Shown: positions 7,047-47,520 of the stretch, piece after piece
Position numbering within the stretch: the first letter of the stretch is position 1
How the letters are laid out: each line of letters opens with the position of its first letter
Assembly (NCBI GenBank): GCA_035632635.1
Contig: DASQGL010000007.1
Span: forward strand, 7,304-71,303
DNA length: 64,000 nucleotides
DNA from: Candidatus Limnocylindrales bacterium
GTDB taxonomy: Bacteria; Chloroflexota; Dormibacteria; CF-121
Direction: 5' to 3'
The notes under the pieces: model-generated
What the model was told of the DNA's origin: nothing
Database searches by the model: none
The model's input: only the letters and a program-made list of their open reading frames with translations
Program-made: the position numbers and the translations under genes

Positions 7047-8606
7047 TCAATCGGCGGTCGTGTAGATCCGGAGCCGCCGGTTGGGCTGCTTTCCGGTCGA
7101 GCGCGCGGTCAGCTCGTGGCGCTCGACGAGCTGATGCTGCAGACGGCGGACGTATGCGTTCTGGGGCGACAGCTCGACCATCGAGTTGGTCGCCTTCGCC
7201 CGATTGATGCCTTCGATCGTCTCCTGGAGCGCGGACTCCGTCGGGTCGGGCGCCTCCAGTTGATACATGCGGGTCAGCGCACTCTTGATCTGAGTGATGG
7301 TATTGCTCTTGAGCACCTGGATCGGGATCCCATCGGCCTCCGCCTCCTTGATGGGGGAGTCTTTGCGCCGGTAATAGTTCTTGAGCGTGACGATCAGGTC
7401 CGCGTCCTCGATGTGGTTCTGCACCCGGACCGGGACCTTCAGATCCTGGATCGCCTGCTCGAGATAGTTGCGGCTGACCCCGTAGGGAAAGATGTTGAGC
7501 GACTCGTGGACCCCGCGCGTCCTCGAGCCCTCGAGCGGCTCCCGGGGGGCGGTCGCGCGCATGGGCTGCGCCTCGGCTATGCGGGCCACGATCGCTCCGT
7601 CCGCGCCCCGGGTGCGCATCTGGGGCGGCTTGAGGACGCCCCGCAACGCCGCGTCGACCACCTCGGCCAGGGGTTGATGCACGGCCAGCCGGTCCCGGTC
7701 GTGGATCTCAACCAGGACGTCGAAGGTGGGCGGCGACTTGCGCTCCAGCACCGACTTCTGGGTGCCTCGCCGGCGGGCCTCCTCGTCCGACAGCGTCACC
7801 GTCTGGATCCCGCCCAACAGGTCGTTCAGCGTCGGGTTGATCATCAGGTTCTCGAGGGAATTCCCATGGGCCGTCGCCACCAGCTGGACGCCGCGCTCGG
7901 CGATCGTGCGCGCGGCGGCCGCCTCGAGCTCGGTTCCGATCTCGTCGATGACGATCACCTGGGGCATGTGGTTTTCGACCGCCTCGATCATGACGGCGTG
8001 CTGCAGGGCGGGCGTGCGCACCTGCATCCGCCGGGCCCGACCGATGCCGGGGTGCGGGATGTCGCCGTCGCCGCCGATCTCGTTCGACGTGTCCACGATC
8101 ACGACCCGCTTCTTCATCTCCTCGGCGAGCACCCGGGCGCATTCCCGAAGCATGGTGGTCTTGCCGATCCCGGGGCGGCCGAGCAATAGGATGCTCTTGC
8201 CGCCGACGACCATGTCTTTGATGATGTCAATCGTGCCGGTGATGGCCCGGCCCACCCGACAGGTCAGCCCGATGATCTGGCCGGAGCGGTTCCGGATGGC
8301 CGAGATGCGGTGCAGCGTGCGCTCGATGCCGGCCCGGTTGTCGTCGCCGAAGGAGCCGACCCGGGTGGCCACGAACTCCAGGTCCTCCGCGGTGACCGGC
8401 GTCTCGTCGAGCAGGACCTCGCTGTCCGGAAAGCGGGCCTCCGGCTCCCGGCCGAGGTCCAGCACCACCTCGAGCAGGAGCCCCTGGTTGTCGAGCCGCC
8501 GGACCGCCCGGTTGATGTGGGGCGGCAGCGCCTGGAACAGCAGGTCGAGCTCAGCCGGGTCCGCCCGGGCCAGCCCGTTCGCCACGCGGCGGGTCTGCGA
8601 GATCAT
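7047..8606 (-). CDS. AAA ATPase with C-terminal R3H nucleic-acid-binding domain (SpoIIIAA/Ycf45-like)
   Basis: 519 aa with Walker A GRPGIGKTT and Walker B VIVIDEIG. Conserved VVIVDTSNEIGGDGDIPHPGIGRARRMQV. C-terminal R3H-like LSPQNAYVRRLQHQLVERHELTARSTG. Confidence 0.85.
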   Translation of the reverse strand: MISQTRRVANGLARADPAELDLLFQALPPHINRAVRRLDNQGLLLEVVLDLGREPEARFPDSEVLLDETPVTAEDLEFVATRVGSFGDDNRAGIERTLHRISAIRNRSGQIIGLTCRVGRAITGTIDIIKDMVVGGKSILLLGRPGIGKTTMLRECARVLAEEMKKRVVIVDTSNEIGGDGDIPHPGIGRARRMQVRTPALQHAVMIEAVENHMPQVIVIDEIGTELEAAAARTIAERGVQLVATAHGNSLENLMINPTLNDLLGGIQTVTLSDEEARRRGTQKSVLERKSPPTFDVLVEIHDRDRLAVHQPLAEVVDAALRGVLKPPQMRTRGADGAIVARIAEAQPMRATAPREPLEGSRTRGVHESLNIFPYGVSRNYLEQAIQDLKVPVRVQNHIEDADLIVTLKNYYRRKDSPIKEAEADGIPIQVLKSNTITQIKSALTRMYQLEAPDPTESALQETIEGINRAKATNSMVELSPQNAYVRRLQHQLVERHELTARSTGKQPNRRLRIYTTAD

Positions 8607-9613
8607 CCGTACTGCGGCACGAGCCGCTTCTCCCGCACCGGGAGGCGCCGCCGCGCCGGCACCTTGAGGGTCAGCTCTTTCACCATCAGCACCTGGGACG
8701 CGATCACCTCGAACCCCTCCCGCTGGAGGAGCGCGATCGCTTCCTGATCATTGTGCCGCAGACTGCACCAGGCCGGGCCGGGATGATGCTCGGCGACGTA
8801 GGCCAATCCCTGCCGCACCACCGAGGCGAGCAGATCCGGTGGGTCGGGACGCGCCATCAAGGCGAGCACCGTGGGGCGACCGCCCCCGCCCGCCGTGACC
8901 CCGAACCAGGCGACGATTTCGACCCGATCGACGACGAACTGGCGGCGGCGGGTCGGCCGCGGCACGGCGCCCGCGCCCTGGCCGTGCTGGAAGGTGTCGC
9001 GCCATTCTTTGAAGGATGCGGCGAGCACATCCGCGACCTCGCGGGGGGTCACGGCCCGGTACAGGAGGTACAGGGCCAGCTGGTCTTCGCGCCGCATCGG
9101 CCGCAGCCCCGGACAGGACGGCGCCGTGCGCCGGGCCAGCGACTCGTGGAGCAGCGCGTGCTCGGTTGCGATCGCGCGGAACCCGCGGGCCTTGAAGAGG
9201 TCCTGGACCGGATCGTCGACACCCACGCGGACCAGGTAGCGGGTGACCCCGCGCTGCAGGCCCTCGTTGCAGAGATGGTCGAGAAGCGCGGTCCCCGCCT
9301 GGAAACGGTCGAGGTCTTGGGCGATCGAGAGATTCAGGATCTGCCAGGCATGCCCGCCCGGCGCCGTCTCCGCCTGGACGAAGGCGTGCAGGCCCGGACG
9401 CCCCGGGTCCTCGGCGACGAAGACGTGGTCAGCCGCCGACGTGATCGGGACCATCGACGCGAACGTGTGGTTGAGCAGGAACCACAGCCGTCGCGACGCC
9501 ATCTGCCGGAACGTGATCGAGGTCCGGGCCGCGCTGTCACGGTCCTGCTCCCGGAAGAGCGCCTCGATCGCGCCGAGATCTCGGAGCTGAGCTGGACGGA
9601 TCTGCAGGCTCAT
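8603..9613 (-). CDS. GNAT-family N-acetyltransferase (apparently two GNAT halves)
   Basis: ATG 9613 overlaps the pdxT stop (ATGA), and the stop overlaps the next gene's start (ATGA). 336 aa. Acetyl-CoA-binding-like segments LQRGVTRYLVRV and REGFEVIASQVLMVK. The upstream part of the 506-aa ORF overlaps pdxT out of frame and was rejected. Confidence 0.7.
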   Translation of the reverse strand: MSLQIRPAQLRDLGAIEALFREQDRDSAARTSITFRQMASRRLWFLLNHTFASMVPITSAADHVFVAEDPGRPGLHAFVQAETAPGGHAWQILNLSIAQDLDRFQAGTALLDHLCNEGLQRGVTRYLVRVGVDDPVQDLFKARGFRAIATEHALLHESLARRTAPSCPGLRPMRREDQLALYLLYRAVTPREVADVLAASFKEWRDTFQHGQGAGAVPRPTRRRQFVVDRVEIVAWFGVTAGGGGRPTVLALMARPDPPDLLASVVRQGLAYVAEHHPGPAWCSLRHNDQEAIALLQREGFEVIASQVLMVKELTLKVPARRRLPVREKRLVPQYG

Positions 9614-30667: not shown

Positions 30668-32047
30668 TCAGCCGCCCTGACCCGCCCGCCGGCGGTCGAG
30701 GTTCGCGAACTTCGTCTGCTCGTCGATGAACAGCAGATCGATCTTGCCCACCGGGCCGTTGCGGTGCTTCGCGATGATCAGCTCCGCGAGGTTGCGCTTG
30801 TCCTCGGGCAGATTGTCGTTGTAGAACCGGTCCCGATAGATGAAGAGGACGACGTCCGAGTCCTGCTCGATTGAGCCCGACTCGCGAAGGTCGGCGAGCT
30901 GCGGCCGATGGTCGGGACGCTTCTCCGGCTCGCGGCTCAGCTGGGAGCAGGCGAGCACGGGCACGTTGAGCTCCCGCGCGAGCCCTTTCAACGATCGCGA
31001 GATGTCCGAGATCTCCTGGACCCGGTTCTCCTGATTGCGCCCCTGCATGAGCTGCAGGTAGTCGACCACGATCATCCCGATGTTCTCCCGGGCCATCAGC
31101 CGGCGGGCGCGGGTCCGCATCTCCAGCACGGACAGCTGGGGCGACTCCTCGATGAAGATCGGCGCCTCGCCCAGCGCGCCCATCGCCTTGGCGATCGGTT
31201 CCCATTCCGTTTCCTTCATCAGGCCGCGACGCAGTCGGTAGGAATCGACGCCTGCCTCGCTGCAGAGCATCCGGGTTGCCAGCTCGGTCTCCGACATCTC
31301 CATCGAGAAGATCCCGATCCCGACCTTGCCGACGATCGCGGCGTGCTGGGCGATGTTGAGCACCAGGCTCGTCTTCCCGACTCCCGGGCGGGCGGCGACC
31401 ACGATCAGGTTGCCGCGCTGGAAGCCGCCGGTCTTGGCATCGAGGTCCACGAAGCCGCTCGGCACGCCGGAGACGTGGCTCGGATCGAGGTGACTCTTCT
31501 CGATGTCTTCCCAGGTCTTCTGCAGGACCTTGATCAGCGGGACGAAGTCCTGCCGGATGCGGCGCTCCGCGACCGCGAAGACGATCTCCTCCGCCTTGTC
31601 GACCGCGAGATCGGCCGCCATCCCGTCTTCGAAGGCGAGGTTGCCGATCCGATCTCCGGCCGCCGTCAGGCGTCGCTTGGTGGCGGCGTCCTCGACGATC
31701 TTCGCGTAGTACTCGATGTTCGCCGCGGTCGGCACGCTGCTCTCCAGCTGGGCGAGGAACTCCTGGCCGCCGACCCGCTCGAGCTGGCCTTTGCGCTCCA
31801 GCTCGGCCGAGAGCGTCAGGAGGTCGATGGGCTCGGAATGCTCGTACAGGTTGAGCGCGGCCTGAAAGACGACGCCGTGGTTGGGGAAGTAGAAGTCGTC
31901 TGGATGGATGAAGTCCGCCACCTTCGCGATCGCGCCGCGATCGAGCATCAAAGCCCCCAGGATCGCGATCTCGGCATCGATGTTGCTTGGAGGGACTCGG
32001 CCCTGGGCGGTTCCTGCTCCGCGGGCGGCGCGGAGGTCGACGGTCAT
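30668..32047 (-). CDS. dnaB: Replicative DNA helicase
   Basis: ATG 32047 overlaps the rplI stop (ATGA). Contains PPSNIDAEIAILGALML, Walker A ARPGVGKTS and IVVDYLQLM. Confidence 0.95.
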   Translation of the reverse strand: MTVDLRAARGAGTAQGRVPPSNIDAEIAILGALMLDRGAIAKVADFIHPDDFYFPNHGVVFQAALNLYEHSEPIDLLTLSAELERKGQLERVGGQEFLAQLESSVPTAANIEYYAKIVEDAATKRRLTAAGDRIGNLAFEDGMAADLAVDKAEEIVFAVAERRIRQDFVPLIKVLQKTWEDIEKSHLDPSHVSGVPSGFVDLDAKTGGFQRGNLIVVAARPGVGKTSLVLNIAQHAAIVGKVGIGIFSMEMSETELATRMLCSEAGVDSYRLRRGLMKETEWEPIAKAMGALGEAPIFIEESPQLSVLEMRTRARRLMARENIGMIVVDYLQLMQGRNQENRVQEISDISRSLKGLARELNVPVLACSQLSREPEKRPDHRPQLADLRESGSIEQDSDVVLFIYRDRFYNDNLPEDKRNLAELIIAKHRNGPVGKIDLLFIDEQTKFANLDRRRAGQGG

Positions 32048-32490
32048 CCGGAGGTGACCACGAGCGGGACCCGGGCGGAGACCTGCTGGTGCACCTTGAC
32101 CAGCGCGACCGCCGGCCCGAGCGCGCGCACCGGTTCGGCGAACTCGATCTTGCGCCGGTCGACCACGATCCCGTGCTGCTGCTTGAGCGCCGAGGCGACG
32201 TCCGCGTTGGTCACCGTGCCGAACAGCTTCCCATCCTTGCCGGCCCGCAACGTGATCGTGACCTGGGCGCTCTCCAGCCGCTTGCCCAGCTCCCGGGCGC
32301 CCTCGAGCTCGCGCTGCTCCCGACGCTCGAGGGTCGCCTTCTCGCGCTCCATGCGCTCCACCGCGCCCGCGGTCGCCGCCGTGGCGAGCTTGCGCGGGAT
32401 CAGGAAGTTGCGGGCGAAGCCGTCGGCGACGTCCTTCGTCTCCCCCGACTTGCCGGTGCCCTTGACGTCCTCGAGCAGGACGACTTTCAC
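32044..32490 (-). CDS. rplI: 50S ribosomal protein L9
   Basis: GTG 32490. VKVVLLEDVKGTGKSGETKDVADGFARNFLIPRKLA... over 148 aa. Confidence 0.93.
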   Translation of the reverse strand: MKVVLLEDVKGTGKSGETKDVADGFARNFLIPRKLATAATAGAVERMEREKATLERREQRELEGARELGKRLESAQVTITLRAGKDGKLFGTVTNADVASALKQQHGIVVDRRKIEFAEPVRALGPAVALVKVHQQVSARVPLVVTSG

Positions 32491-37858: not shown

Positions 37859-38507
37859 ACGTGATCGTCGCCTCCAGCGTAGGGTCGAAGAGCCGCCCGG
37901 ACAGCGTCGCCCGCCAGAGCGTGGCGGGGGGCTCGATCCAGTAGGTCGTCTGGTAGGAGCCCTCCGATCGTGCGACGGAGAGCAGGTCGTGGACCTGCGC
38001 GGCCTCGAGCCGGCCGCTGACCGTCCAGGTTGGGTGCCCGTTCAGCGTCTGCTGGCCGCCCCGGGTCACCTGGGTGGTTTTCGCCATCGCGCTGAACAGG
38101 CCGCGGGTGGGATCGAAGAGCGCGTGCACGTCGAAGAACTGGGCGACCTCCGCCGGCGTCAGCTCCTGCCACCCGCCCGTGAACGACTTCAGATAGACGT
38201 GCGAGCCGAGGACGATGACGTTGACCTCGAGCAGCACGCCGTTCTGCGCCAGCTCCACCCGCGTGGTCAGGTCGGGCGGGTGCGCGTCGCCCTCGGCGCT
38301 CTGTACCGGGATCGCGGCCGGCGGAGCCCCCTGGATGGCGAGCGTGAAATGGAAGCCGCGCACGGCGTTCATGTGCGCGCTCGTCTGCCGCAACAGCGCC
38401 GCGGCATCGGGCGGCGGCGACCCGCAGCCGCCGGCCAGCAGGCAGAGCAGCGAGACGACCCCGAGCGCCATCCGGCGCCGTCGGAGCCGGCGGAGCACGC
38501 TCATCAA
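37803..38507 (-). CDS. LppX/LprAFG-family lipoprotein (LprG-like)
   Basis: Lipobox LLAGGCGS. 234 aa. The mature start ALLRQTSAHMNAVRGFHFTL... is typical of the LppX_LprAFG fold. Followed directly by an MFS pump, as in M. tuberculosis lprG-p55. Confidence 0.78.
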   Translation of the reverse strand: MMSVLRRLRRRRMALGVVSLLCLLAGGCGSPPPDAAALLRQTSAHMNAVRGFHFTLAIQGAPPAAIPVQSAEGDAHPPDLTTRVELAQNGVLLEVNVIVLGSHVYLKSFTGGWQELTPAEVAQFFDVHALFDPTRGLFSAMAKTTQVTRGGQQTLNGHPTWTVSGRLEAAQVHDLLSVARSEGSYQTTYWIEPPATLWRATLSGRLFDPTLEATITFDFSKHDQPVTITAPPLG

Positions 38508-40399
38508 GGCCTCAGGATACGGTCATCTCCAACCCGGCGGGTCACCTTCTGGGCGTCCAGCCATTCGAGCAGCGGGAGCACGTATCGGCGGCTGGACCCG
38601 AGCAGGTCTCGCGCCTGGGCCACGCTGATGCGCCCCTGGCTCGCGAGATGGTCCCGGATCGCCTGCACGGCGCGGTCGTAGGCGCCCCTGGCGAAGACGG
38701 TGTGCTCGTCCACCCGGACGACCTGACCCCCGGCAACCAGGCGTTGCAGGACCGGCGGGCTCAGTGTGTGTTTGCGGACGAGGTCATCGAGCGAGGGCGG
38801 GCTCATCCCACCGGCCTCCAGCTCGGCGAGCGCGGCGGCGACGGCCTGCTCCTGCTCCGGCGACAGGCGAACCGCGTGTCCGCTGAGCGCCACCTCGCCG
38901 GCCGCGTCCCGCACCCGTCCGGCCCGCACCATCGCCTCGACGGCGGCGGCGAAGAGCGGCGCGCCGGCCGCGACCCGGCTCTTGAGCTCTTCGCGCGGCA
39001 TCCCTTCCTTCAGCGGGTTGCGGGCGTGGTACTCACGCAGCGTGGTCTCGATCCGCGCCTCCAGGTCCCGCGCCGCGGCGGCGGTCAGGACGGCCGGGCC
39101 GAGGCGGACGGCGCCGCCGGTCGAGACCAGCGCGTCCAGCGCGCGGTCGACCTCGGCCCGCGAGGCGCTCAGCCGCTGCGCGAGCTCGTCCGGCCGCAGC
39201 CCGAACCGGTGCTTGGCCAGCTCGGCGGCCACCATGACCCGCGGATCCGCGTGCTCACGGGCGCGGAGATCGCCGAGCACGGCGGCGTCGCGCCGGCGGT
39301 GACGCCGTGGGTTCGCGTCGATGACGACGCCCCCGGCAACCGTCGCCGTCGGCGACGGCTGGCGAAGGATGAAGCGGTCCGAGACGACGGCGGGGAGGGG
39401 CGCGCTGAGGTAGAGCTGCGCGTACCCGCTCGCTCCCCGCTCCAGACGATCCTCATCCAGGAGGACGACATCGACCGGCACCTCCGCCGTCCCGAGATAG
39501 AGGTTGAGCCGGGCGCGGGAGGCGAGCGGCCGGGGCGCCGTGGGCAGCACCTGGAGCCGCGCGTCCAGCCGCCGGCCGGCGACCATCGTCCCGGGAAGCG
39601 TGAGCAGCTCACCGCGTGAGACGTCGGCGCGCTCGACGGCCGCGAGGTTGACCGCAGCGCGGCTGCCGGGGAGCGCGCGGCTGACCGCCCGGTTGTGCTG
39701 CTGCAACCCGCGCACCCGGACGTGCCGTTGGCTCGGGAGCAGGACCAGCTCGGCGCCGACGTCGATGCTCCCCCCCGTCAACGTGCCGGTGACGACGGTG
39801 CCGAACCCGGCCATGGTGAAGCTGCGGTCGACCCACAACCGCGGCCGGCCGACGTCGGGACGCGGGGTGGTGCCGGCGAGCTCGGCGTCGAGGGCGCGGC
39901 GCAGCTCGTCGAGTCCGGCCCCGGTCGAGCCGGAGACTGGCACGATCGCCGCGTCCTGGAGGCTGTGCCCGGTCAGCGCCCGGCGCACCTCCGCGGTGAC
40001 GAGCGCGAGCCACTCCGCATCGACCAGGTCCGCCTTGGTCAACGCCACCACGCCGTGCCGGACATCGAGCAGGTCGAGGATGGCGAGGTGCTCGTGCGTC
40101 TGGGGCATCGGGCCCTCATCGGCGGCGACCACGAAGAGCACCGCATCGATGCCGTGCACCCCGGCCAGCATGTTCTTGAGAAATCGCTGATGGCCGGGGA
40201 CGTCGACGATGCCGACATGGCGGCCGCTGCCGAGATCGAAGAAGGCGAAGCCGAGATCGATCGTCATCCCACGGCGCTTCTCCTCCTCGAGCCGGTCGGG
40301 ATCGATGCCGGTGAGCGCCCGCACCAGGGTCGACTTCCCGTGGTCGATGTGCCCCGCAGTGCCGACGACGTACGAGCCCGAGACCGTCGCCAACGCCAT
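38504..40399 (-). CDS. selB: Selenocysteine-specific translation elongation factor
   Basis: [39 protein letters not shown] and DVPGH. 631 aa with a long winged-helix C-terminus. Confidence 0.92.
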
Positions 40400-41751
40400 C
40401 AGGCGAATGCGGCGCCAACCGCGCGGAGCAGGCTGTCGTCCTCACCGGGCAGGACGGTGCGCGGATCGAGCAGGAGGCGGCCGTCCGCGATCCGGGCGAT
40501 CACCGGCGGATCGCCGCGGCGCAGGCGATCCATGGCTCGCGTCAGCCGCGCCCCCGAGGCCGCGACCCGGACCACGTGGGTGGGCAGCGTCTGGCCGGGC
40601 AGGGAACCGCCACCGACCTCCGAGGCGCCCGCGGCCACGTCGACCATGAGCCCGGCGCCCCTGAGCGCCGCCGCCCAGCGTTCGGCACGCTCGGCCAGTT
40701 CCGCAGGAGCGACGCGGAGCATCGCCCAGACCGGCAGGGACGCCTGCGCCCCGGTCAGGTAGAGGTCGAGGGTCGCGGCAAGCGCGGCAAGCGTCATCTT
40801 GTCGACCCGGACGGCACGCGCCAGGGGGTGCGCGATCGCGCGCGCCACCAGCGCCTTAAGGCCGAGCAGGAGCCCGGCCTGCGGCCCCCCGAGCAGCTTG
40901 TCGCCGCTGCAGACGAGCAGGTCGACGCCCGCCTGGAGGCTCGCCGCCACGGTGGGCTCCGAGGGGACGCCGGGCCACCCGGTTTCCTGGAGCGCGCCGC
41001 TGCCGAGATCGTGGAGCAGCAGGATGTCGCGCTCGTGGGCAAGCGCCGCGAGGCTTGCGACCTCGACCGACTCGGTGAACCCGACCACCTGGAAATTGCT
41101 CGTGTGGACCTTGAGGATGGCAGCGGTCCTGCCGCCGATCGCCTGCCGGTAGTCGTCCAACCGGGTCCGGTTCGTGGTGCCGACCTCGACCATGCGGGCG
41201 CCGCTCAACCGCATGATGTCCGGCATGCGAAAGGCGCCCCCGATCTCGATCAGCTCGCCGCGCGAGACGATCACCTCCTTGCCGCGGGCGAGCGCCGCCA
41301 GCATCAGCAGGGTGGCGGCCGCACCGTTGTTGACGACCGCGGCGGCCTCGGCGCCGGTCAGCCGGCAGAGCGCCGCGGTGACCAGGTCGTGGCGGCGCCC
41401 TCGCCGGCCGGTCCCAAGATCCAGCTCCAGGTTCGAGTAGCCGGTCGCGATGGTGGCCGCGGCGGCGGCCGCCTCCGGTGCCAGCGGCGCGCGCCCGAGG
41501 TTCGTGTGCAGGATGACCCCGGTCGCGTTGACGACCCGTCGTAATCGCGGCCTGCGGACGTCCGCGATGATCGCGTCGACCGCGGCCCATCGAGAGGCGG
41601 GATCGGCCGCCTGCCCGCTCTCACGTTCCGCCTGCAACGCGCGCTGGACGGCGTCGAGCACGAGCGCGCGACCATGGCGCCCGATCAGCGCCGCGCCCGC
41701 CTCGGACTCGAGCAGGTCGTGCACGCTGGGCAGGCGGCGCAGGACGTCCAT
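40399..41751 (-). CDS. selA: L-seryl-tRNA(Sec) selenium transferase
   Basis: Contains [16 protein letters not shown] and VVNNGAAA, with the PLP lysine context [13 protein letters not shown]. The stop overlaps the selB ATG (TGATG). Confidence 0.92.
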
Positions 41752-41757
41752 CGGGCC

Positions 41758-44728: not shown

Positions 44729-44753
44729 GGTGCGACCCGGGTGAGGAGGAACA

Positions 44754-44780
44754 AGGCGGCCTCGATTCTAGAGGCCGCCT
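44754..44780 (-). terminator. GC-rich 10-bp hairpin downstream of the acidic micro-ORF
   Basis: AGGCGGCCTC-gattcta-GAGGCCGCCT. On the minus strand it is followed by TGTTCC, a weak U-tract. Confidence 0.4.
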
Positions 44781-44784
44781 CAGG

Positions 44785-44898
44785 TCAGACGTCCTGCGAG
44801 GTGAAGTCCGGCGTCGGGTCGTCCCAGCGGCGCAGCTCCTCACGGTACTCGTCGTACAGCGCGTCGTCCTGGTTGTCGGGATCGTCGTCGCTGATCAT
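44785..44898 (-). CDS. Unlisted 37-aa acidic micro-ORF (MISDDDPDNQDDALYDEYREELRRWDDPTPDFTSQDV)
   Basis: The ATG at 44898 is preceded by GAGGAGG, which starts right at the ssb stop. The ORF ends just before a hairpin. It is below the 60-aa cutoff of the track. Confidence 0.4.
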   Translation of the reverse strand: MISDDDPDNQDDALYDEYREELRRWDDPTPDFTSQDV

Positions 44899-44908
44899 GG
44901 CCGCCTCC

Positions 44909-45301
44909 TCAGACGCCGGCCGCGACCGGCTCGGCCGGCTCGGCGGGGGCATCCGCGCCATCGGCCGCCGTCTCGGGTCGGGGCCCGATCATCTGCATCT
45001 GGTCGAGGGTCACCTCGGTCGTGTAGCGGCGCAGTCCGTCCTTGCCCTCCCACTCCTTCGTCCGCAGCTTGCCCTCCGTGTAGACGAGCCGGCCTCGCGA
45101 AAGATACTCGCGGCAGATCTCGGCCAGGCGTCCGAAGGCCACCAGCGAGTGGTACTGGACGTCCTCGACGCGGTTGCCGTCGTCGTCGCGGGCGTGCGAG
45201 TTGGTCGCCAGCCGCAGCTTGGCGATGGTGGTGCCTTTGGAGGTCGTCACCATCTCGGGGTCGCGTGTCAACCGTCCAATCAAGATCACCCGGTTCACCA
45301 T
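44909..45301 (-). CDS. ssb: Single-stranded DNA-binding protein
   Basis: ATG 45301 lies behind AAGGAG. OB fold: MVNRVILIGRLTRDPEM...YHSLVAFGRLAE...LVYTEGKLRTKEW. The C-terminus lacks the usual acidic D-D-(D/E)-x-P-F tip. Confidence 0.9.
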   Translation of the reverse strand: MVNRVILIGRLTRDPEMVTTSKGTTIAKLRLATNSHARDDDGNRVEDVQYHSLVAFGRLAEICREYLSRGRLVYTEGKLRTKEWEGKDGLRRYTTEVTLDQMQMIGPRPETAADGADAPAEPAEPVAAGV

Positions 45302-45348: not shown

Positions 45349-45924
45349 TCAGCCACCACCTCCCTGGCGCGCGGGAGGCAGATACGGCGCCGGATCGACC
45401 GGGACGCCGTGGACGCGCACCTCGAAGTGCAGATGCGGGCCGGTGCTGTTTCCGGAGCTTCCGACCAGCCCGATCGGCTGACCGGACCGGACGGTGTCGC
45501 CGGCCGAGACGAGCGCGACGCTCAGGTGGGCATAAACCGTCGCGAGCTGGCCCAACGCGTCCCGCTCCACGATCACGTAGAGGCCGTACCCCGCCGGGTT
45601 GAAGCCGGCCGAGGCGATCCCGGCATGCGCGGCGAGAACCGGCGTGTGCCAGGGCGCCGCCAGGTCGATGCCGCTGTGGAAGTGGCCGGTGGCGCACTGG
45701 CGGCTGACCGGCTCCAGGGTCAGCGTCGTGCAGCCGAAGGGCTGGGTGACGACCCGAAGCGGCAGGGGATCGACGAGGGGGATGGGACCGGCCGGGGCCA
45801 CGATCGACAGCACCCCGGCCGCGAGCAGCGCGGGGATGAAGACGACGGCGATGCCCGCGATGATCAGCCCGCGACGCCAGCGAAAGGCGAAGAGGAGCAG
45901 CCGCCCGGCCAGCAGGGCGCTCAT
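45349..45924 (-). CDS. Membrane-anchored M23 (LytM-type) peptidoglycan endopeptidase
   Basis: ATG 45924 overlaps the upstream stop (ATGA). N-terminal TM segment. Motifs HFHSGIDLAA and GNSTGPHLHFEV. Confidence 0.85.
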   Translation of the reverse strand: MSALLAGRLLLFAFRWRRGLIIAGIAVVFIPALLAAGVLSIVAPAGPIPLVDPLPLRVVTQPFGCTTLTLEPVSRQCATGHFHSGIDLAAPWHTPVLAAHAGIASAGFNPAGYGLYVIVERDALGQLATVYAHLSVALVSAGDTVRSGQPIGLVGSSGNSTGPHLHFEVRVHGVPVDPAPYLPPARQGGGG

Positions 45925-46817
45925 CCGACCGCCTTGGGCACCCTGGTGGCCGCCTTGTAGGCGTGCTTGGCCGCGGTGACCGCGTAATGCTGGACCCGGC
46001 CCTCCAGGTGCGCCGAGGAACTGAGCACGCCGGGCACCTTGATCACGAGGTAGAGGACGGCGGCGCCGTAGAGGGCGGCAATCGGGTTGCCGTTGAGCTC
46101 GGTCGTGAAGGCGCTGGCGAGGCGCAGGACGAGCACCTGCCCGAACTGCATGAACACCGTCACCATGAAGAGCCGGTTCCAGCCGCGCGCGAAGCTCTTC
46201 GTCTCGGGAAGGACGAGACAGAGCGCGGCGAGCGGCGCGACCGCCAGCAGGATCGTGAGCAGGGCGAACCGCATCACGTAGCTCAGGCCGAGGATCAGCA
46301 TCATGACGACGATCGCGCCGCGGACGGCGAGCTGAAACAGCGGCAGGCCGAACGTCTGCGTCAACGCGAACGTCCAGGGGAAGACCGGACCGTCGACGCC
46401 GGGCAGGCGCGCCGTCCAGACCGCGTGGACCAGCGCGTTGTTGAGGTCGATCGCCATCTGCCCGAAGACGAGCGCGAAGTGGGCCAGCGCGATCGCGGCC
46501 ATGGCGCTGGGCAGCATGGTCTTGAGCCCGTAGCGGGCGCGGATCCCGCGCTCCCACTGGGTGCGCAGGAAGGCATAGGTCAAAAAGAGCACCAGCAGCA
46601 GATCCGCCATCCCGAGCGTGAGGTGGTAGACGCCTTGCAGGGCGGGGTCGTCGGTCAGCGGCCGCGGCGTCAGCGAAGTCACGTCGTGCGTGCTCAGGAG
46701 GTAGGTCTCGACCAGCCCGGAAACGGAGTCGCGGATGTCCGACAGCAGGTGGTCCAGGAATCCCGTGATGAGCGAGGAGAAGACATCGAGGACACCGCCC
46801 GGTCCTGGGCCCGGCAC
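45921..46817 (-). CDS. Polytopic membrane protein, TrbL/VirB6-like (tentative)
   Basis: 298 aa with about 6 TM segments. Architecture and gene context (after a VirB2-like gene, before a cell-wall hydrolase) resemble T4SS VirB6 proteins. There is no motif-level proof. Confidence 0.5.
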   Translation of the reverse strand: MPGPGPGGVLDVFSSLITGFLDHLLSDIRDSVSGLVETYLLSTHDVTSLTPRPLTDDPALQGVYHLTLGMADLLLVLFLTYAFLRTQWERGIRARYGLKTMLPSAMAAIALAHFALVFGQMAIDLNNALVHAVWTARLPGVDGPVFPWTFALTQTFGLPLFQLAVRGAIVVMMLILGLSYVMRFALLTILLAVAPLAALCLVLPETKSFARGWNRLFMVTVFMQFGQVLVLRLASAFTTELNGNPIAALYGAAVLYLVIKVPGVLSSSAHLEGRVQHYAVTAAKHAYKAATRVPKAVG

Positions 46818-46824
46818 GAAGCGG

Positions 46825-47055
46825 CTAGTGGGTGACCGAGTCCGTCAGCACGCGAACCAGCAGCCCGGCCATCTCGACCCCGATCGTGCCGAAGACGATG
46901 CGGCCGATCCAGCGTTTGGCCTCGGTCACGCTGCGGGTGTCGATCGCGACCATCTTCCAGATGAACGCGCAGACGAAGGCCAGCGCGCCGATCGAGCCCG
47001 CCAGGCCCTGCGCGTATCCGGTCCAGACATCGATCAGGTGCTTGAGCTGATCCAT
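46825..47055 (-). CDS. 76-aa two-TM protein, TrbC/VirB2-pilin-like (tentative)
   Basis: ATG 47055 overlaps the upstream stop (TGATG). MDQLKHLIDVWTGYAQGLAGSIGALAFVCAFIWKMV...AKRWIGRIVFGTIGVEMAGLLVRVL follows the helix-TM-loop-TM pattern of VirB2-type pilins. Confidence 0.45.
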   Translation of the reverse strand: MDQLKHLIDVWTGYAQGLAGSIGALAFVCAFIWKMVAIDTRSVTEAKRWIGRIVFGTIGVEMAGLLVRVLTDSVTH

Positions 47056-47417
47056 CAGCGCCGTCCCTCCATGGCGGGCACCACGCGCTGCTCGAGGAAG
47101 CGCTCGACGGTGTGCGTGAGCCGCTGCAGGATGTCCCATTCGGTTTGCAGCTGGGTCCGATCGTCGCGGTTGAACTGCGCCATCCATCCCGGGGTCAGGT
47201 CCGCAGGCGCGGCGACCGCGGTCGCGGCGAGCGACGGCGCGGGCGCCGCGGTGGTCAGTCCGGGAAAGGCGCCGGCTCGCGTCCGGGGCAGGGTGATGGG
47301 CGGCGGCGCCTGGGCGAAGCGATGCGGCTGGAGAAAGAGATGGAGGCCGACGCCGGTGAAGGCGGCCAGCACGGTGACCTCGCCGGTGATGACGACCGTC
47401 TTGAGCGATACGCGCAT
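47055..47417 (-). CDS. Hypothetical single-TM protein with a Pro/Ala linker (first gene of the module)
   Basis: 120 aa. TM segment VVITGEVTVLAAFTGVGLHLFL. C-terminal helical domain WMAQFNRDDRTQLQTEWDILQRLTHTVERFLEQ. Confidence 0.45.
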   Translation of the reverse strand: MRVSLKTVVITGEVTVLAAFTGVGLHLFLQPHRFAQAPPPITLPRTRAGAFPGLTTAAPAPSLAATAVAAPADLTPGWMAQFNRDDRTQLQTEWDILQRLTHTVERFLEQRVVPAMEGRR

Positions 47418-47456
47418 GCGGGGACCTCTGATGACGGGTGGTCGGGGGCAGGTGCC

Positions 47457-47484
47457 ATACTGCCACAGATTTGTATATCTGTCA
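47457..47484 (-). promoter_or_regulatory. Candidate sigma-70-type promoter TTGACA-N16-CAGTAT
   Basis: Minus strand reads TTGACA (47484..47479), a 16-nt AT-rich spacer (gatatacaaatctgtgg), then CAGTAT (47462..47457). It lies about 39 nt upstream of ATG 47417. Confidence 0.35.
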
Positions 47485-47520
47485 AGGCCAGCAACCTTCT
47501 CGGCACCGGCACGCGCGACC

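What the first reader, a model, noticed from the sequence alone, without database searches (positions are those of the whole stretch)
45349..47484. Orphan VirB2-like / VirB6(TrbL)-like / M23-hydrolase membrane module with no secretion ATPases, embedded among core genes
Four tightly coupled minus-strand genes sit behind their own AT-rich TTGACA-N16-CAGTAT promoter patch. The junctions are TGATG at 47055, a 7-nt gap at 46818-46824, and ATGA at 45921-45924.

Gene products:
- a 120-aa single-TM protein with a Pro/Ala linker
- a 76-aa two-TM hairpin protein with the layout of TrbC/VirB2 pilins
- a 298-aa protein of about 6 TM segments with the layout of TrbL/VirB6
- a TM-anchored M23 endopeptidase (HFHSGIDLAA, GPHLHFEV), which is the usual wall-hydrolase partner of monoderm T4SSs

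ssb follows directly, as on many conjugative elements. However, there is no VirB4, VirD4/FtsK-like coupling protein, relaxase, integrase or flanking direct repeat anywhere in the 64 kb. Composition looks the same as the flanking ychF and signalling genes.

It is therefore either the last remnant of a decayed integrative and conjugative element (ICE), or a domesticated ATPase-less envelope module (wall remodelling, DNA or protein passage). The second option has not been described to my knowledge.
Basis: partly seen in the sequence, partly recalled or inferred. Interest (0 to 1): 0.7.

Follow-up and report, generated by a model that had tools for sequence, protein, structure and literature searches.

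The report
Domesticated conjugation-type membrane module in Dormibacterota
A soil bacterial phylum (Dormibacterota) keeps, in its core genome and under strong selection, a small piece of DNA-conjugation machinery (pilin-like protein, VirB6-like membrane protein, wall-cutting enzyme) linked to a single-strand DNA-binding protein. No motor ATPase lies nearby, so it is a working, repurposed device, not a dead mobile element.

Summary
Four translationally coupled minus-strand genes at 45349-47417 encode:
- a bitopic Pro/Ala-rich protein (gA);
- a 76-aa two-TM protein (gB);
- a TrbL/VirB6-family protein (gC; Pfam TrbL_4 above threshold, best PDB fold matches all R388 VirB6);
- an anchored, catalytically intact M23 endopeptidase (gD).

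A tail-less ssb follows.

The window comes from Candidatus Dormibacterota. The operon and its promoter are collinear in all 37 species-level genomes recovered, with one apparent 5' truncation. The promoter is TTGACA-N17-extended -10, with a palindrome in the spacer.

dN/dS is 0-0.03 for gB and 0.04-0.11 for gC, like YchF. This refutes the decaying-ICE reading.

More divergent sub-lineages carry gB-gC, with or without M23 and ssb, behind the same operator in other core contexts.

The nearest outside relatives of gC (hhalign E 2e-41) sit in complete monoderm-type T4SS clusters: TrbL_4, NlpC/P60, T4SS_pilin, PrgI, VirB4, primase, coupling protein. The ancestry is therefore T4SS.

No VirB4, PrgI or coupling protein occurs in 756 kb of Dormibacterota loci. 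Whole genomes could not be scanned.

Best reading: a domesticated T4SS-derived envelope module, plausibly handling ssDNA like archaeal Ced/Ted. Its motor is either encoded elsewhere or absent.

The parts
47480..47485 (-). -35 hexamer TTGACA of the operon promoter
   Evidence: Read directly. Conserved upstream of gA in related loci: a strict pattern matched once per locus in 32 of them, and variants occur in divergent sub-lineages L042-L044, L127 and L129.
47463..47476 (-). Operator-like palindrome inside the 17-nt spacer. In the window it is degenerate (ATACAAATCTGTGG); the consensus in relatives is ACACAGATCTGTGT.
   Evidence: It is the only match in the 64-kb window (3 mismatches). A related TACAC-N5/6-GTGTA occurs in the divergent sub-lineages. 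Binding of a regulator is inferred, not shown.
47457..47462 (-). -10 hexamer CAGTAT, preceded by TGG (extended -10)
   Evidence: The position is conserved and the hexamer varies (AAGGAT, CAGGAT, CATTAT). The consensus scan did not call it.
47055..47417 (-). gA: 120-aa bitopic protein with an N-terminal TM helix, a Pro/Ala-rich linker and a C-terminal helix
   Evidence: No family match. It is 40-60% identical across the main lineage, with dN/dS 0.07-0.41 across ten pairs. A protein of the same architecture sits in the same position in L129. It is absent from L042-L044.
46825..47055 (-). gB: 76-aa two-TM hairpin, a VirB2/T4SS_pilin-like small subunit
   Evidence: PF18895 E 0.015 for the window protein; 6 of 14 homologues hit PF18895 and 5 of 14 hit PF04956, all sub-threshold. 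NCBIfam Mbov_0395 pilin-like E 0.038. hhalign against T4SS_pilin proteins of VirB4 clusters gives E 0.0014. It is 82-93% identical across the phylum. dN/dS is 0-0.03 in nine of ten pairs and 0.17 in the window-L004 pair.
45921..46817 (-). gC: TrbL/VirB6-family polytopic membrane protein (possible true start at 46793)
   Evidence: PF19597 TrbL_4 E 9e-12, above the gathering score. AF2 model pLDDT 84. Foldseek PDB ranks 1-5 are all R388 TrwI/VirB6. hhalign E 1.9e-41 to T4SS-embedded TrbL_4 proteins. dN/dS is 0.04-0.11 in nine of ten pairs and 0.25 in the window-L004 pair.
45349..45924 (-). gD: membrane-anchored M23 (LytM-type) peptidoglycan endopeptidase
   Evidence: PF01551 E 1e-27. The HxxxD and HxH zinc motifs are present in 34 of 34 homologues. 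The N-terminal TM segment is seen. The start overlaps the gC stop (ATGA), as the NlpC/P60 hydrolase does with TrbL_4 in the outgroup T4SS clusters.
44909..45301 (-). ssb: 130-aa OB-fold single-strand DNA-binding protein without an acidic C-terminal tip. Probably the fifth gene of the operon.
   Evidence: PF00436 E 3e-31 and TIGR00621. It lies 47 nt after gD with no hairpin between. It is linked to the module in the main lineage and, in different genomic contexts, in L042, L127 and L129.
44785..44898 (-). 37-aa highly acidic small ORF with its own GGAGG Shine-Dalgarno, 10 nt after ssb
   Evidence: It is conserved as a 37-50-aa acidic ORF 8-16 nt after ssb in 32 related loci. It occurs in all three relative frames and after all three stop codons.
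44753..44781 (-). 11-bp GC-rich hairpin after the small ORF: a candidate operon terminator, with a weak U tract
   Evidence: Comparable hairpins occur in many relatives. In five loci ychF starts 13 nt after the small ORF instead.

Best explanation
This is a vertically inherited operon derived from a type IV secretion system (T4SS). It is fixed in the core genome of Candidatus Dormibacterota.

Shown:
- gC is a VirB6/TrbL-family membrane protein. Its closest relatives outside the clade sit in complete monoderm-type conjugation clusters.
- gB is a very strongly constrained 76-aa two-TM partner encoded next to it.
- gD is an active-site-intact, membrane-anchored M23 wall endopeptidase.
- All the genes, plus a tail-less SSB, lie behind one conserved promoter that carries a palindrome.

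Inferred mechanism:
- gC oligomerises into an inner-membrane platform or pore, as VirB6 does in R388.
- gB subunits dock on it, either as a membrane-embedded channel lining or as a short conduit.
- gD opens the peptidoglycan locally. gA, with its Pro-rich spacer, reaches into the wall.
- The co-expressed SSB coats single-stranded DNA on the cytoplasmic side.

On this reading the module is a bacterial counterpart of the archaeal Ced/Ted systems: a domesticated conjugation apparatus that moves chromosomal ssDNA, regulated through the operator. The energising ATPase is not in the operon. It is either encoded elsewhere or has been dispensed with. In Sulfolobus, cedA and cedB carry distant locus tags, which I recall from memory and did not check here.
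For: Family membership and ancestry:
- gC matches Pfam TrbL_4 above threshold.
- A confident AF2 model has its five best PDB fold matches all to TrwI/VirB6.
- hhalign gives probability 100% and E 1.9e-41 to a family whose loci read PEGA-domain protein, TrbL_4, NlpC/P60, T4SS_pilin, PrgI, VirB4-like ATPase, DnaG-like primase, coupling-protein-like ATPase.
- gB gives weak pilin hits only, and only to pilin families.

Domestication:
- The order gA-gB-gC-gD-ssb is the same in the loci of 37 GTDB species genomes and 3 long metagenome contigs, wherever the contig reaches. L033 is the one exception.
- Identity to the window is 82-93% for gB, against 73-82% for YchF.
- In nine of ten species pairs, dN/dS is 0-0.03 for gB and 0.04-0.11 for gC. 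It is 0.13-0.39 for gD and 0.07-0.41 for gA across ten pairs (gA is 0 in the near-identical L038-L040 pair). In the window-L004 pair all genes run higher (gB 0.17, gC 0.25, YchF 0.20).
- Composition is native.
- There is no integrase, relaxase, tRNA or att repeat.
- The family is absent from viral contigs.

Regulation:
- The promoter and palindrome are conserved. A strict pattern matched once per locus in 32 loci, and variants persist in sub-lineages whose gC is only 35-40% identical.

DNA link:
- A tail-less ssb directly follows the module in the main lineage. It also does so in three other sub-lineage loci (L042, L127, L129) that lie in unrelated genomic contexts.

Precedents:
- Ced/Ted are domesticated VirB2/VirB6/VirB4 systems for DNA import, and Ced is induced by DNA damage (PMC9905601, PMC11868833).
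Against: - No ATPase (VirB4, HerA, FtsK, VirB11, VirD4), PrgI/VirB3 or VirB8 was found in the window or in 756 kb of related loci. Every characterised T4SS and Ced/Ted system needs a VirB4-type motor.
- Whole genomes could not be searched, so the energy source is unknown.
- gB does not reach any curated pilin threshold. The hhalign probability is only 18%.
- The ssb linkage is absent in one sub-lineage (L043, L044, L128). This ssb could also simply be the housekeeping gene.
- M23 is missing in L042 and L127.
- No direct evidence of DNA transport, of expression or of a regulator exists.
- The organisms are uncultured.
Confidence: 0.45

Rival explanations
1. It is the visible half of a complete but scattered T4SS. 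This system would secrete proteins or mediate cell contact rather than move DNA. VirB4, VirB3/PrgI and other parts would be encoded at other loci, as in the Rickettsiales rvh system or some Patescibacteria.
For: In Patescibacteria many T4SS components are not adjacent to virB4. That system mostly lacks a relaxase and appears co-opted for non-conjugative roles (PMC12102498). A Rickettsia paper in the library describes an anomalous, reduced T4SS (PMC2653234, listed; the scattered gene arrangement is my own recollection). The module's own strong conservation fits an important envelope machine.
Against: No other T4SS gene lies in 756 kb of sampled neighbourhoods. The recurrent operon partner is an SSB, which points to DNA rather than protein substrates. 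No candidate effector genes are linked.
Confidence: 0.2
2. It is an ATPase-independent envelope or cell-wall remodelling complex. A VirB6-like/VirB2-like membrane scaffold would position or gate the M23 endopeptidase, for growth, division or septum splitting. DNA would play no role, and ssb would be only a neighbour.
For: An intact anchored M23 enzyme is translationally coupled to gC in most lineages. No motor is nearby. The constraint is at housekeeping level and the module is universal. Bactofilin and M50 protease genes lie a few kb away in the same synteny block.
Against: The invariant core is gB-gC, not the hydrolase: M23 is absent from the operon in L042 and L127 while ssb is kept. No known wall-hydrolase regulator uses VirB6/VirB2-like proteins. 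In T4SSs the hydrolase is the accessory part, not the point of the machine (established knowledge).
Confidence: 0.2
3. It is the last remnant of a decayed integrative conjugative element.
For: The gene content (pilin-like, VirB6-like, wall hydrolase, ssb) resembles a fragment of a monoderm conjugation module. One relative (L004) carries a 290-bp duplicated piece of gB/gC and inserted foreign genes at the operon's 5' end.
Against: The order and location are the same in 37 species-level genomes. dN/dS is as low as or lower than that of YchF and SSB. The promoter is conserved. Composition is native. There is no integrase, relaxase or att site. The ORFs are intact wherever the contigs allow.
Confidence: 0.03
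4. The resemblance to T4SS proteins is spurious, and these are unrelated helical membrane proteins.
For: The Foldseek E-values are weak (0.05-0.12) and TM-scores are 0.35-0.46. A PDB sequence-profile search found nothing. The gB hits are sub-threshold.
Against: The Pfam TrbL_4 match is above the gathering score. hhalign gives E 1.9e-41 over 257 columns to proteins encoded beside VirB4, PrgI and T4SS_pilin. The only weak hits of gB are to pilin families. gB and gC weakly hit a Mbov_0395 / Mbov_0396 family pair of Mycoplasma ICE proteins, with consecutive locus numbers.
Confidence: 0.02

Closest known systems
Archaeal Ced (Sulfolobales) and Ted (Thermoproteales) DNA-import systems: CedA/TedA (VirB6-like), CedA1/TedC (VirB2-like), CedA2, CedB/TedB (VirB4/HerA-like)
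   Same: It is chromosomal and lineage-wide, and derives from conjugation machinery. It consists of a VirB6-like polytopic protein plus two-TM VirB2-like small proteins, without relaxase or coupling protein. CedA1 is apparently not processed at the N-terminus, and gB likewise has no signal peptide. The link to DNA metabolism is DNA-damage induction for Ced and an operon SSB plus operator here. (PMC9905601, PMC11868833)
   Different: Ced/Ted always include a VirB4/HerA-type ATPase, which is essential for import. None was found here within reach. There is no detectable sequence similarity to Ced/Ted (not tested directly; different domains of life). This module adds an M23 wall hydrolase, a Pro-rich bitopic protein and an SSB. 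No pilus or DNA transfer has been observed for it.
Monoderm (MPF-FATA-like) conjugative T4SS clusters found as the sequence outgroup (loci L053, L062, L074, L077, L082 and others)
   Same: gC is homologous to their TrbL_4 protein (hhalign E 1.9e-41). They encode a 77-aa T4SS_pilin of the same length as gB, with a similar N-terminus. A membrane-anchored wall hydrolase overlaps the TrbL stop codon in the same way.
   Different: Those clusters also carry PrgI/VirB3, VirB4, a DnaG-like primase, a coupling-protein-like ATPase and a PEGA protein. All of these are absent from the Dormibacterota loci. Their hydrolase is NlpC/P60, not M23. The gene order differs (the pilin lies after the hydrolase). 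Their distribution across genomes was not examined here.
Chromosomal T4SS of Patescibacteria (CPR)
   Same: It belongs to a neighbouring lineage. It is chromosomal and mostly lacks a relaxase. It is derived from monoderm conjugation machinery, includes VirB6 and PF18895-type pilins, and is thought to be co-opted for a non-conjugative role (PMC12102498).
   Different: The CPR system is defined by VirB4, with TrsD and PrgI/VirB3. Its pilins are often in variable arrays (about 25% identity on average), whereas gB is single-copy and 82-93% conserved. There it is tied to an epibiotic lifestyle. Dormibacterota are, to my knowledge, free-living soil bacteria.
Helicobacter pylori ComB DNA-uptake T4SS
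   Same: It is a T4SS (with VirB2-, VirB6-like and other parts) used to take up DNA rather than export it. PMC11868833 cites it as the rare bacterial case.
   Different: ComB retains ComB4 (VirB4) and the diderm core ComB7-10 (my own knowledge, not checked here). It is confined to a narrow group. There is no evidence of homology beyond the family level.

Membership tests
TrbL/VirB6 family (Pfam PF19597 TrbL_4, PF19590, PF04610) | Sequence match above the curated Pfam gathering score | tested here: met
   gC scores PF19597 E 9.2e-12 and 45.3 bits against a cut-off of 27, covering 12-288 of 298. Homologues carry precomputed PF19590, PF19597 and sometimes PF04610.
TrbL/VirB6 family (Pfam PF19597 TrbL_4, PF19590, PF04610) | Polytopic all-helical fold like solved VirB6 (R388 TrwI) | tested here: met
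   The AF2 model has pLDDT 84. Foldseek PDB ranks 1-5 are all TrwI/VirB6 chains (7o3v, 8rt9, 8rtd), with probability 0.85-0.99 over 271-290 columns. E is only 0.05-0.12 and TM 0.29-0.46, so the support is moderate.
TrbL/VirB6 family (Pfam PF19597 TrbL_4, PF19590, PF04610) | Homology to members that are encoded within VirB4-containing T4SS gene clusters | tested here: met
   hhalign A3 against A5 gives probability 100% and E 1.9e-41 over 257 columns. The A5-type loci carry T4SS_pilin, PrgI, a VirB4-like ATPase and a coupling-protein-like ATPase.
VirB2/TrbC/T4SS_pilin family (PF04956, PF18895) | Sequence match above the curated threshold | tested here: not met
   gB scores PF18895 E 0.015 and 15.8 bits against a cut-off of 26.6. 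Six of 14 homologues hit PF18895 (best E 0.007) and 5 of 14 hit PF04956 (E at least 0.1). The PDB profile search found nothing.
VirB2/TrbC/T4SS_pilin family (PF04956, PF18895) | Profile-profile similarity to bona fide T4SS_pilin proteins | tested here: inconclusive
   hhalign A4 against A6 gives E 0.0014 and probability 18%, with 57 collinear columns from residue 1. The shared features are MDxI/L..L at the N-terminus and AF(I/L)(Y/W).M.A...P...ME..K.
VirB2/TrbC/T4SS_pilin family (PF04956, PF18895) | About 75-aa two-TM hairpin encoded next to a VirB6 homologue | tested here: met
   TM segments lie at roughly 14-40 and 53-71. gB is immediately upstream of gC in nearly every locus of every sub-lineage; it is truncated in L033 and L046.
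VirB2/TrbC/T4SS_pilin family (PF04956, PF18895) | Polymerises into a pilus or conduit | not testable with these tools
   This needs cryo-EM or cryo-ET, or purification.
Functional type IV secretion system | A VirB4-family ATPase, the one ubiquitous T4SS protein (PMC4027160 abstract) | tested here: not met
   None was found in the 64-kb window: every Walker-A ORF was identified as something else. tblastn with an outgroup VirB4 found none in 756 kb of window plus 46 related loci. The rest of the genomes could not be searched.
Functional type IV secretion system | Coupling protein and/or relaxase (for conjugative systems) | tested here: not met
   There were no matches in the window or the loci. 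This was not tested genome-wide.
Integrative conjugative element, intact or decaying | Integrase or relaxase, att repeats or a tRNA target, atypical composition | tested here: not met
Integrative conjugative element, intact or decaying | Patchy distribution and relaxed selection or pseudogenes | tested here: not met
   The module is collinear in 37 species genomes. dN/dS is 0-0.41 for all genes, and gB and gC equal or beat YchF.
Ced/Ted-like domesticated DNA-transfer system | Chromosomal, lineage-wide VirB6-like plus VirB2-like genes | tested here: met
Ced/Ted-like domesticated DNA-transfer system | VirB4/HerA-like ATPase (CedB/TedB) | tested here: inconclusive
   It was not found locally. It was not testable genome-wide. 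In Sulfolobus the ATPase gene is also not adjacent to cedA (my own knowledge).
Ced/Ted-like domesticated DNA-transfer system | Moves DNA and is induced by DNA damage | not testable with these tools
   There is only indirect evidence: operon linkage to ssb and a conserved operator-like palindrome.
Peptidase M23 (LytM-type endopeptidase) | M23 domain with HxxxD and HxH zinc ligands | tested here: met
   PF01551 E 1e-27. The motifs are present in 34 of 34 homologues.

The most novel reading that the evidence does not exclude
Dormibacterota genomes contain no VirB4/HerA-type partner at all. On this reading the gB-gC pair is the first T4SS-derived machine that works without the otherwise universal VirB4 motor. 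For example, it could be a passive or proton-motive-force-driven ssDNA channel, whose substrate is captured and pulled in by the co-expressed tail-less SSB.
Probability: 0.2. Interest if true: 0.9.

Novelty: new variant of a known kind. Interest (0 to 1): 0.68.

Why it matters
Conjugation machinery is normally the property of mobile elements. Beltran et al. (PMC9905601, 2023) wrote that, to their knowledge, its domestication for DNA transfer had not been reported in organisms other than the archaea they studied. A chromosomal T4SS has since been described in the reduced, host-dependent Patescibacteria (PMC12102498).

This operon would add a phylum of (to my knowledge) free-living soil bacteria in which a minimal VirB2-like/VirB6-like/hydrolase set has been fixed. 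It is kept under housekeeping-level constraint, given its own operator-bearing promoter, and tied to an SSB.

It bears on two open questions. What is the minimal functional core of a T4SS, and in particular is VirB4 really indispensable? And how do uncultured soil phyla exchange or take up DNA?

It also gives a concrete, small target for structural and heterologous work: 76 aa plus 290 aa.

Tried and rejected
- Generic sigma-70 scan: no promoter called. Phylogenetic footprinting superseded this.
- PDB sequence-profile searches for gC and gB: nothing relevant.
- PHROGs and PADLOC: no phage or defence family.
- Viral contigs: no relative of gC.
- Rfam and tRNA scans of the region: nothing credible.
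- Direct and inverted repeat search for att sites: only chance GC-rich matches.
- HMMs of gA, gB and gD against all ORFs of the 80 outgroup loci: no hits. gA and the M23 hydrolase are therefore not shared with the outgroup T4SS. gB similarity appears only at profile-profile level.
- Single-sequence AF2 model of gA: low confidence (pLDDT 58), showing only a TM helix, a disordered linker and a helix. I did not use it for fold search.
- Programmed frameshift or stop-codon read-through joining ssb to the acidic ORF: rejected, because the frame offset and stop codon vary freely and a Shine-Dalgarno sequence is present.
- Searching for VirB4 elsewhere in Dormibacterota genomes: not possible.
- Literature searches for Dormibacterota with T4SS, secretion, VirB4 or TrbL: no prior description of this module.

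Full report
**Observation**

The window is about 70% GC throughout, and the module region (0.68-0.70) does not stand out.
- gA, 47055-47417, 120 aa.
- gB, 46825-47055, 76 aa. Its ATG overlaps the gA stop in TGATG.
- gC, 45921-46817, 298 aa from a GTG. Alignment with homologues suggests the real start may be the GTG at 46793.
- gD, 45349-45924, 191 aa, with an ATGA overlap with gC.

ssb starts 47 nt further on (ATG 45301) and ychF follows.

The quoted promoter is present. The spacer between TTGACA (47480-47485) and CAGTAT (47457-47462) is 17 nt, not 16, and the -10 is preceded by TGn. A generic consensus scan does not call it, because the -10 matches only 3 of 6.

**Source organism and conservation**

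A protein search with gC returned about 200 close relatives (59-83% identity). Those that carry names are Candidatus Dormibacteraeota, or older 'Chloroflexi bacterium' soil MAGs.

A scan of one genome per GTDB species found 37 loci. tblastn of the window's proteins shows the same order, gA-gB-gC-gD-ssb and usually ychF, in every locus as far as each contig reaches. A PocR-GGDEF gene lies 0.1-4 kb upstream. The single exception is L033, a co-assembled MAG contig in which gA and most of gB are replaced by an unrelated gene.

Identity to the window by gene:

| Gene | Identity to window |
|---|---|
| gB | 82-93% |
| YchF | 73-82% |
| SSB | 66-83% |
| gC | 53-83% |
| gD | 49-69% |
| gA | 40-60% |

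Nei-Gojobori dN/dS over ten species pairs:

| Gene | Typical range | Window-L004 pair |
|---|---|---|
| gB | 0-0.03 (dN = 0 in six pairs, with dS up to 0.77) | 0.17 |
| gC | 0.04-0.11 | 0.25 |
| YchF | 0.02-0.12 | 0.20 |
| SSB | 0.01-0.07 | 0.12 |
| gD | 0.13-0.27 | 0.39 |
| gA | 0.07-0.32 (0 in the near-identical L038-L040 pair) | 0.41 |

These are working genes of the core genome, not a decaying insert.

**Promoter**

I aligned the 130 nt upstream of gA from more than 30 loci. This shows a block TCTTGACAAATACACAGATnTGTGTAAGGAT: a -35 TTGACA, a 17-nt spacer containing the palindrome ACACA-N4-TGTGT, and a TGn-extended -10.

A strict pattern for this block matches exactly once in each of 32 loci, always 50-70 nt upstream of gA. 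In the window the palindrome is degenerate, and it is the only such site in 64 kb.

It probably carries an operator. The regulator is unknown.

**What the proteins are**

- gC matches Pfam TrbL_4 above the gathering score (E 9e-12) and weakly matches TrbL/VirB6.
- An AlphaFold2 model built on 86 homologues is confident (pLDDT 84). Against 350,000 PDB chains, its five best Foldseek matches are all TrwI/VirB6 from the R388 T4SS, aligned over essentially the full length. The probability is 0.85-0.99, but the E-values are weak (0.05-0.12) and TM is 0.29-0.46.
- gD is an M23 peptidase (E 1e-27) with an N-terminal TM anchor. Both zinc-ligand motifs are present in 34 of 34 homologues.
- gB is a two-TM hairpin. 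Its only database hits are sub-threshold matches to pilin families: PF18895 T4SS_pilin at E 0.015 for the window protein (6 of 14 homologues), PF04956 TrbC/VirB2 (5 of 14), and NCBIfam Mbov_0395 'pilin-like conjugal transfer protein'. gC weakly hits the Mbov_0396 family, the consecutively numbered gene of Mycoplasma ICEs.
- gA has no family. It has an N-terminal TM helix, a roughly 40-residue Pro/Ala-rich disordered linker and a C-terminal helix.

**Ancestry**

An exhaustive profile search with gC found 1599 relatives.

The nearest clusters are further Dormibacterota-type proteins of 300-320 aa. Beyond them comes a family of 350-600-aa TrbL_4 proteins.

I fetched 80 metagenomic loci for that family. 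The long ones show a conserved cluster:
- a PEGA-domain protein;
- TrbL_4;
- a membrane-anchored NlpC/P60 hydrolase, whose start overlaps the TrbL stop;
- a 77-aa T4SS_pilin (PF18895, above threshold);
- PrgI (VirB3-like);
- a VirB4-like ATPase (P-loop_TraG/AAA_10);
- a DnaG-type primase;
- a coupling-protein-like ATPase.

Profile-profile comparison of the Dormibacterota gC family with this family gives probability 100% and E 1.9e-41 over 257 columns.

gB compared with the genuine pilins of those clusters gives only E 0.0014 and probability 18%. The alignment is collinear from residue 1, and the proteins are the same length and share N-terminal and loop motifs.

The module therefore descends from a monoderm-type conjugative T4SS. 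This is firmly shown for gC and plausible for gB.

**What is missing**

Every Walker-A ORF in the window is something else: thymidylate kinase, a SpoIIIAA-like/R3H ATPase, DnaB, SelB, YchF or an ABC transporter.

Pfam scans of about 50 of the window's predicted genes show ordinary metabolic and housekeeping functions, with no integrase or relaxase.

tblastn with the outgroup's PEGA, hydrolase, pilin, PrgI, VirB4, primase and coupling proteins against the window plus 46 Dormibacterota loci (756 kb) hits only gC.

There are no tRNA genes, no att-like repeats, no viral relatives and no defence-system matches.

I could not search whole genomes. 'No ATPase' is therefore established only for these neighbourhoods.

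**Wider family and the ssb link**

More divergent sub-lineages have gC 35-40% identical and gB about 65% identical. Some of their homologues are named Dormibacteraeota. They carry the module in different core contexts:
- L042 and L127: gB-gC-ssb.
- L043, L044 and L128: gB-gC-M23, next to phosphatidylinositol-mannoside-type lipid genes.
- L129: a gA-like 114-aa protein, then gB-gC-M23-ssb.
- L046: a truncated gB, then gC-M23, in a still more distant group.

All loci with intact upstream sequence keep a recognisable version of the same promoter and palindrome: TACAC-N5/6-GTGTA between a -35 and a -10.

The invariant core is thus promoter/operator-gB-gC. M23, gA and ssb are frequent partners.

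An SSB lacking the acidic C-terminal tip travels with the module in three sub-lineages despite genome rearrangement. This is the main hint that the substrate is single-stranded DNA.

In the window there is no hairpin between gD and ssb. An 11-bp GC hairpin follows the small ORF after ssb. Many relatives show a comparable hairpin there. The likely transcription unit is therefore gA-gB-gC-gD-ssb-small ORF.

**Mechanism**

The shown and inferred steps of the preferred mechanism are set out in the Best explanation section. In brief, it is a gC platform with docked gB, a wall opening made by gD, and SSB acting on translocated ssDNA.

The closest functional precedent is the archaeal Ced/Ted system. 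It is a domesticated VirB2/VirB6/VirB4 apparatus that imports chromosomal DNA, and Ced is induced by DNA damage (PMC9905601, PMC11868833).

The chromosomal, mostly relaxase-less T4SS of the neighbouring Patescibacteria is another precedent (PMC12102498). Both keep a VirB4-type motor.

Here the motor is either elsewhere in the genome or absent. The second possibility would be unprecedented, since VirB4 is the one ubiquitous T4SS protein (PMC4027160).

**Rivals**

- A scattered complete T4SS used for proteins or contact.
- An ATPase-independent wall-remodelling complex centred on the M23 enzyme. This is weakened because M23, not gB-gC, is the dispensable part.
- A decayed ICE. This is refuted.

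**Novelty**

Library searches found no description of this module in Dormibacterota.

I class it as a new variant of a known kind: a domesticated T4SS derivative. The points of interest are its minimal composition, extreme conservation, dedicated operator, SSB linkage and the unresolved motor.

Noticed in passing
window 44785-45301 (-); also L002-L041: The operon SSB has no acidic C-terminal tip. A separate 37-50-aa very acidic ORF (for example MIPEPHPYDPDDPTYDE...DPLEY) follows 8-16 nt downstream with its own GGAGG. It occurs in all three relative frames and after TGA, TAG and TAA alike, so it is an independent microprotein rather than a frameshift or read-through product. It looks like an SSB acidic tail supplied in trans. 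In L034 it appears fused to a shortened ssb.
   Followed up: partly
L004 9013-9302 and 4595-8804: In the closest relative, a 290-bp copy (94.8% identical) of the gB 3' end plus gC 5' end sits directly upstream of the intact operon's promoter. It lies beside about 4.5 kb of extra genes (HicB-like, DUF4238) that other genomes lack. This is a recent duplication or insertion scar at the operon's 5' end.
   Followed up: partly
L033 1-2075: In one co-assembled MAG contig, gA and all but the last 18 codons of gB are replaced by a 497-aa ORF on the same strand (no family search was run; the sequence looks like a glycosyl/methyltransferase). gC, gD and ssb are intact. This is either a real loss or a chimeric assembly.
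   Followed up: no
window 47463-47476; L002-L041, L042-L044, L127, L129 upstream of gA/gB: A conserved palindrome (ACACA-N4-TGTGT, or TACAC-N5/6-GTGTA) lies inside the promoter spacer across sub-lineages whose gC is only 35-40% identical. It does not match any SOS or other operator consensus I know. The regulator and regulon are unknown. A short hairpin at the start of the 5' UTR (GGCAGCGTTGCC-like) is also conserved in the main lineage.
   Followed up: partly
window 7050-8747 (-): A 566-aa protein combines a SpoIIIAA-like AAA ATPase, a PTPase-like domain and an R3H (single-strand nucleic-acid-binding) domain, next to thymidylate kinase. To my knowledge SpoIIIAA-type ATPases resemble secretion ATPases, and no other ORF in the window does. 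It lies 38 kb from the module, and nothing links the two.
   Followed up: no
window 30671-32490 (-): rplI and dnaB are adjacent, but there is no rpsF-ssb-rpsR set upstream of them (a 126-aa protein with no Pfam match lies there instead). In this window the only ssb is therefore the one in the module operon.
   Followed up: partly
L129 8025-9449: In one divergent sub-lineage the module plus ssb is followed by a 474-aa receiver-domain plus ParA/CbiA-type ATPase (CpaE/TadZ-like). Ted systems in archaea are associated with a VirC1/ParA-like ATPase (PMC9905601). This is a single observation.
   Followed up: no
L053, L062, L074, L077, L082 (outgroup loci), about 8.5-19 kb: An apparently coherent monoderm-type T4SS cluster from high-GC metagenomic organisms. 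It reads: PEGA-domain protein, TrbL_4, NlpC/P60, 77-aa T4SS_pilin (70-88% identical to one reference pilin across most of these loci), PrgI, VirB4, DnaG-like primase, and a roughly 910-aa coupling-protein-like ATPase. No relaxase was recognised in the ORFs scanned.
   Followed up: partly
window 38504-41757 (-): By length, and by synteny with the annotated relatives (SelA, SelB and LppX_LprAFG follow ychF, bactofilin and M50), these two ORFs are probably the selenocysteine genes selA and selB. They lie 2-5 kb beyond ychF. They were not scanned against Pfam in the window. I checked TGA read-through for ssb and rejected it.
   Followed up: partly
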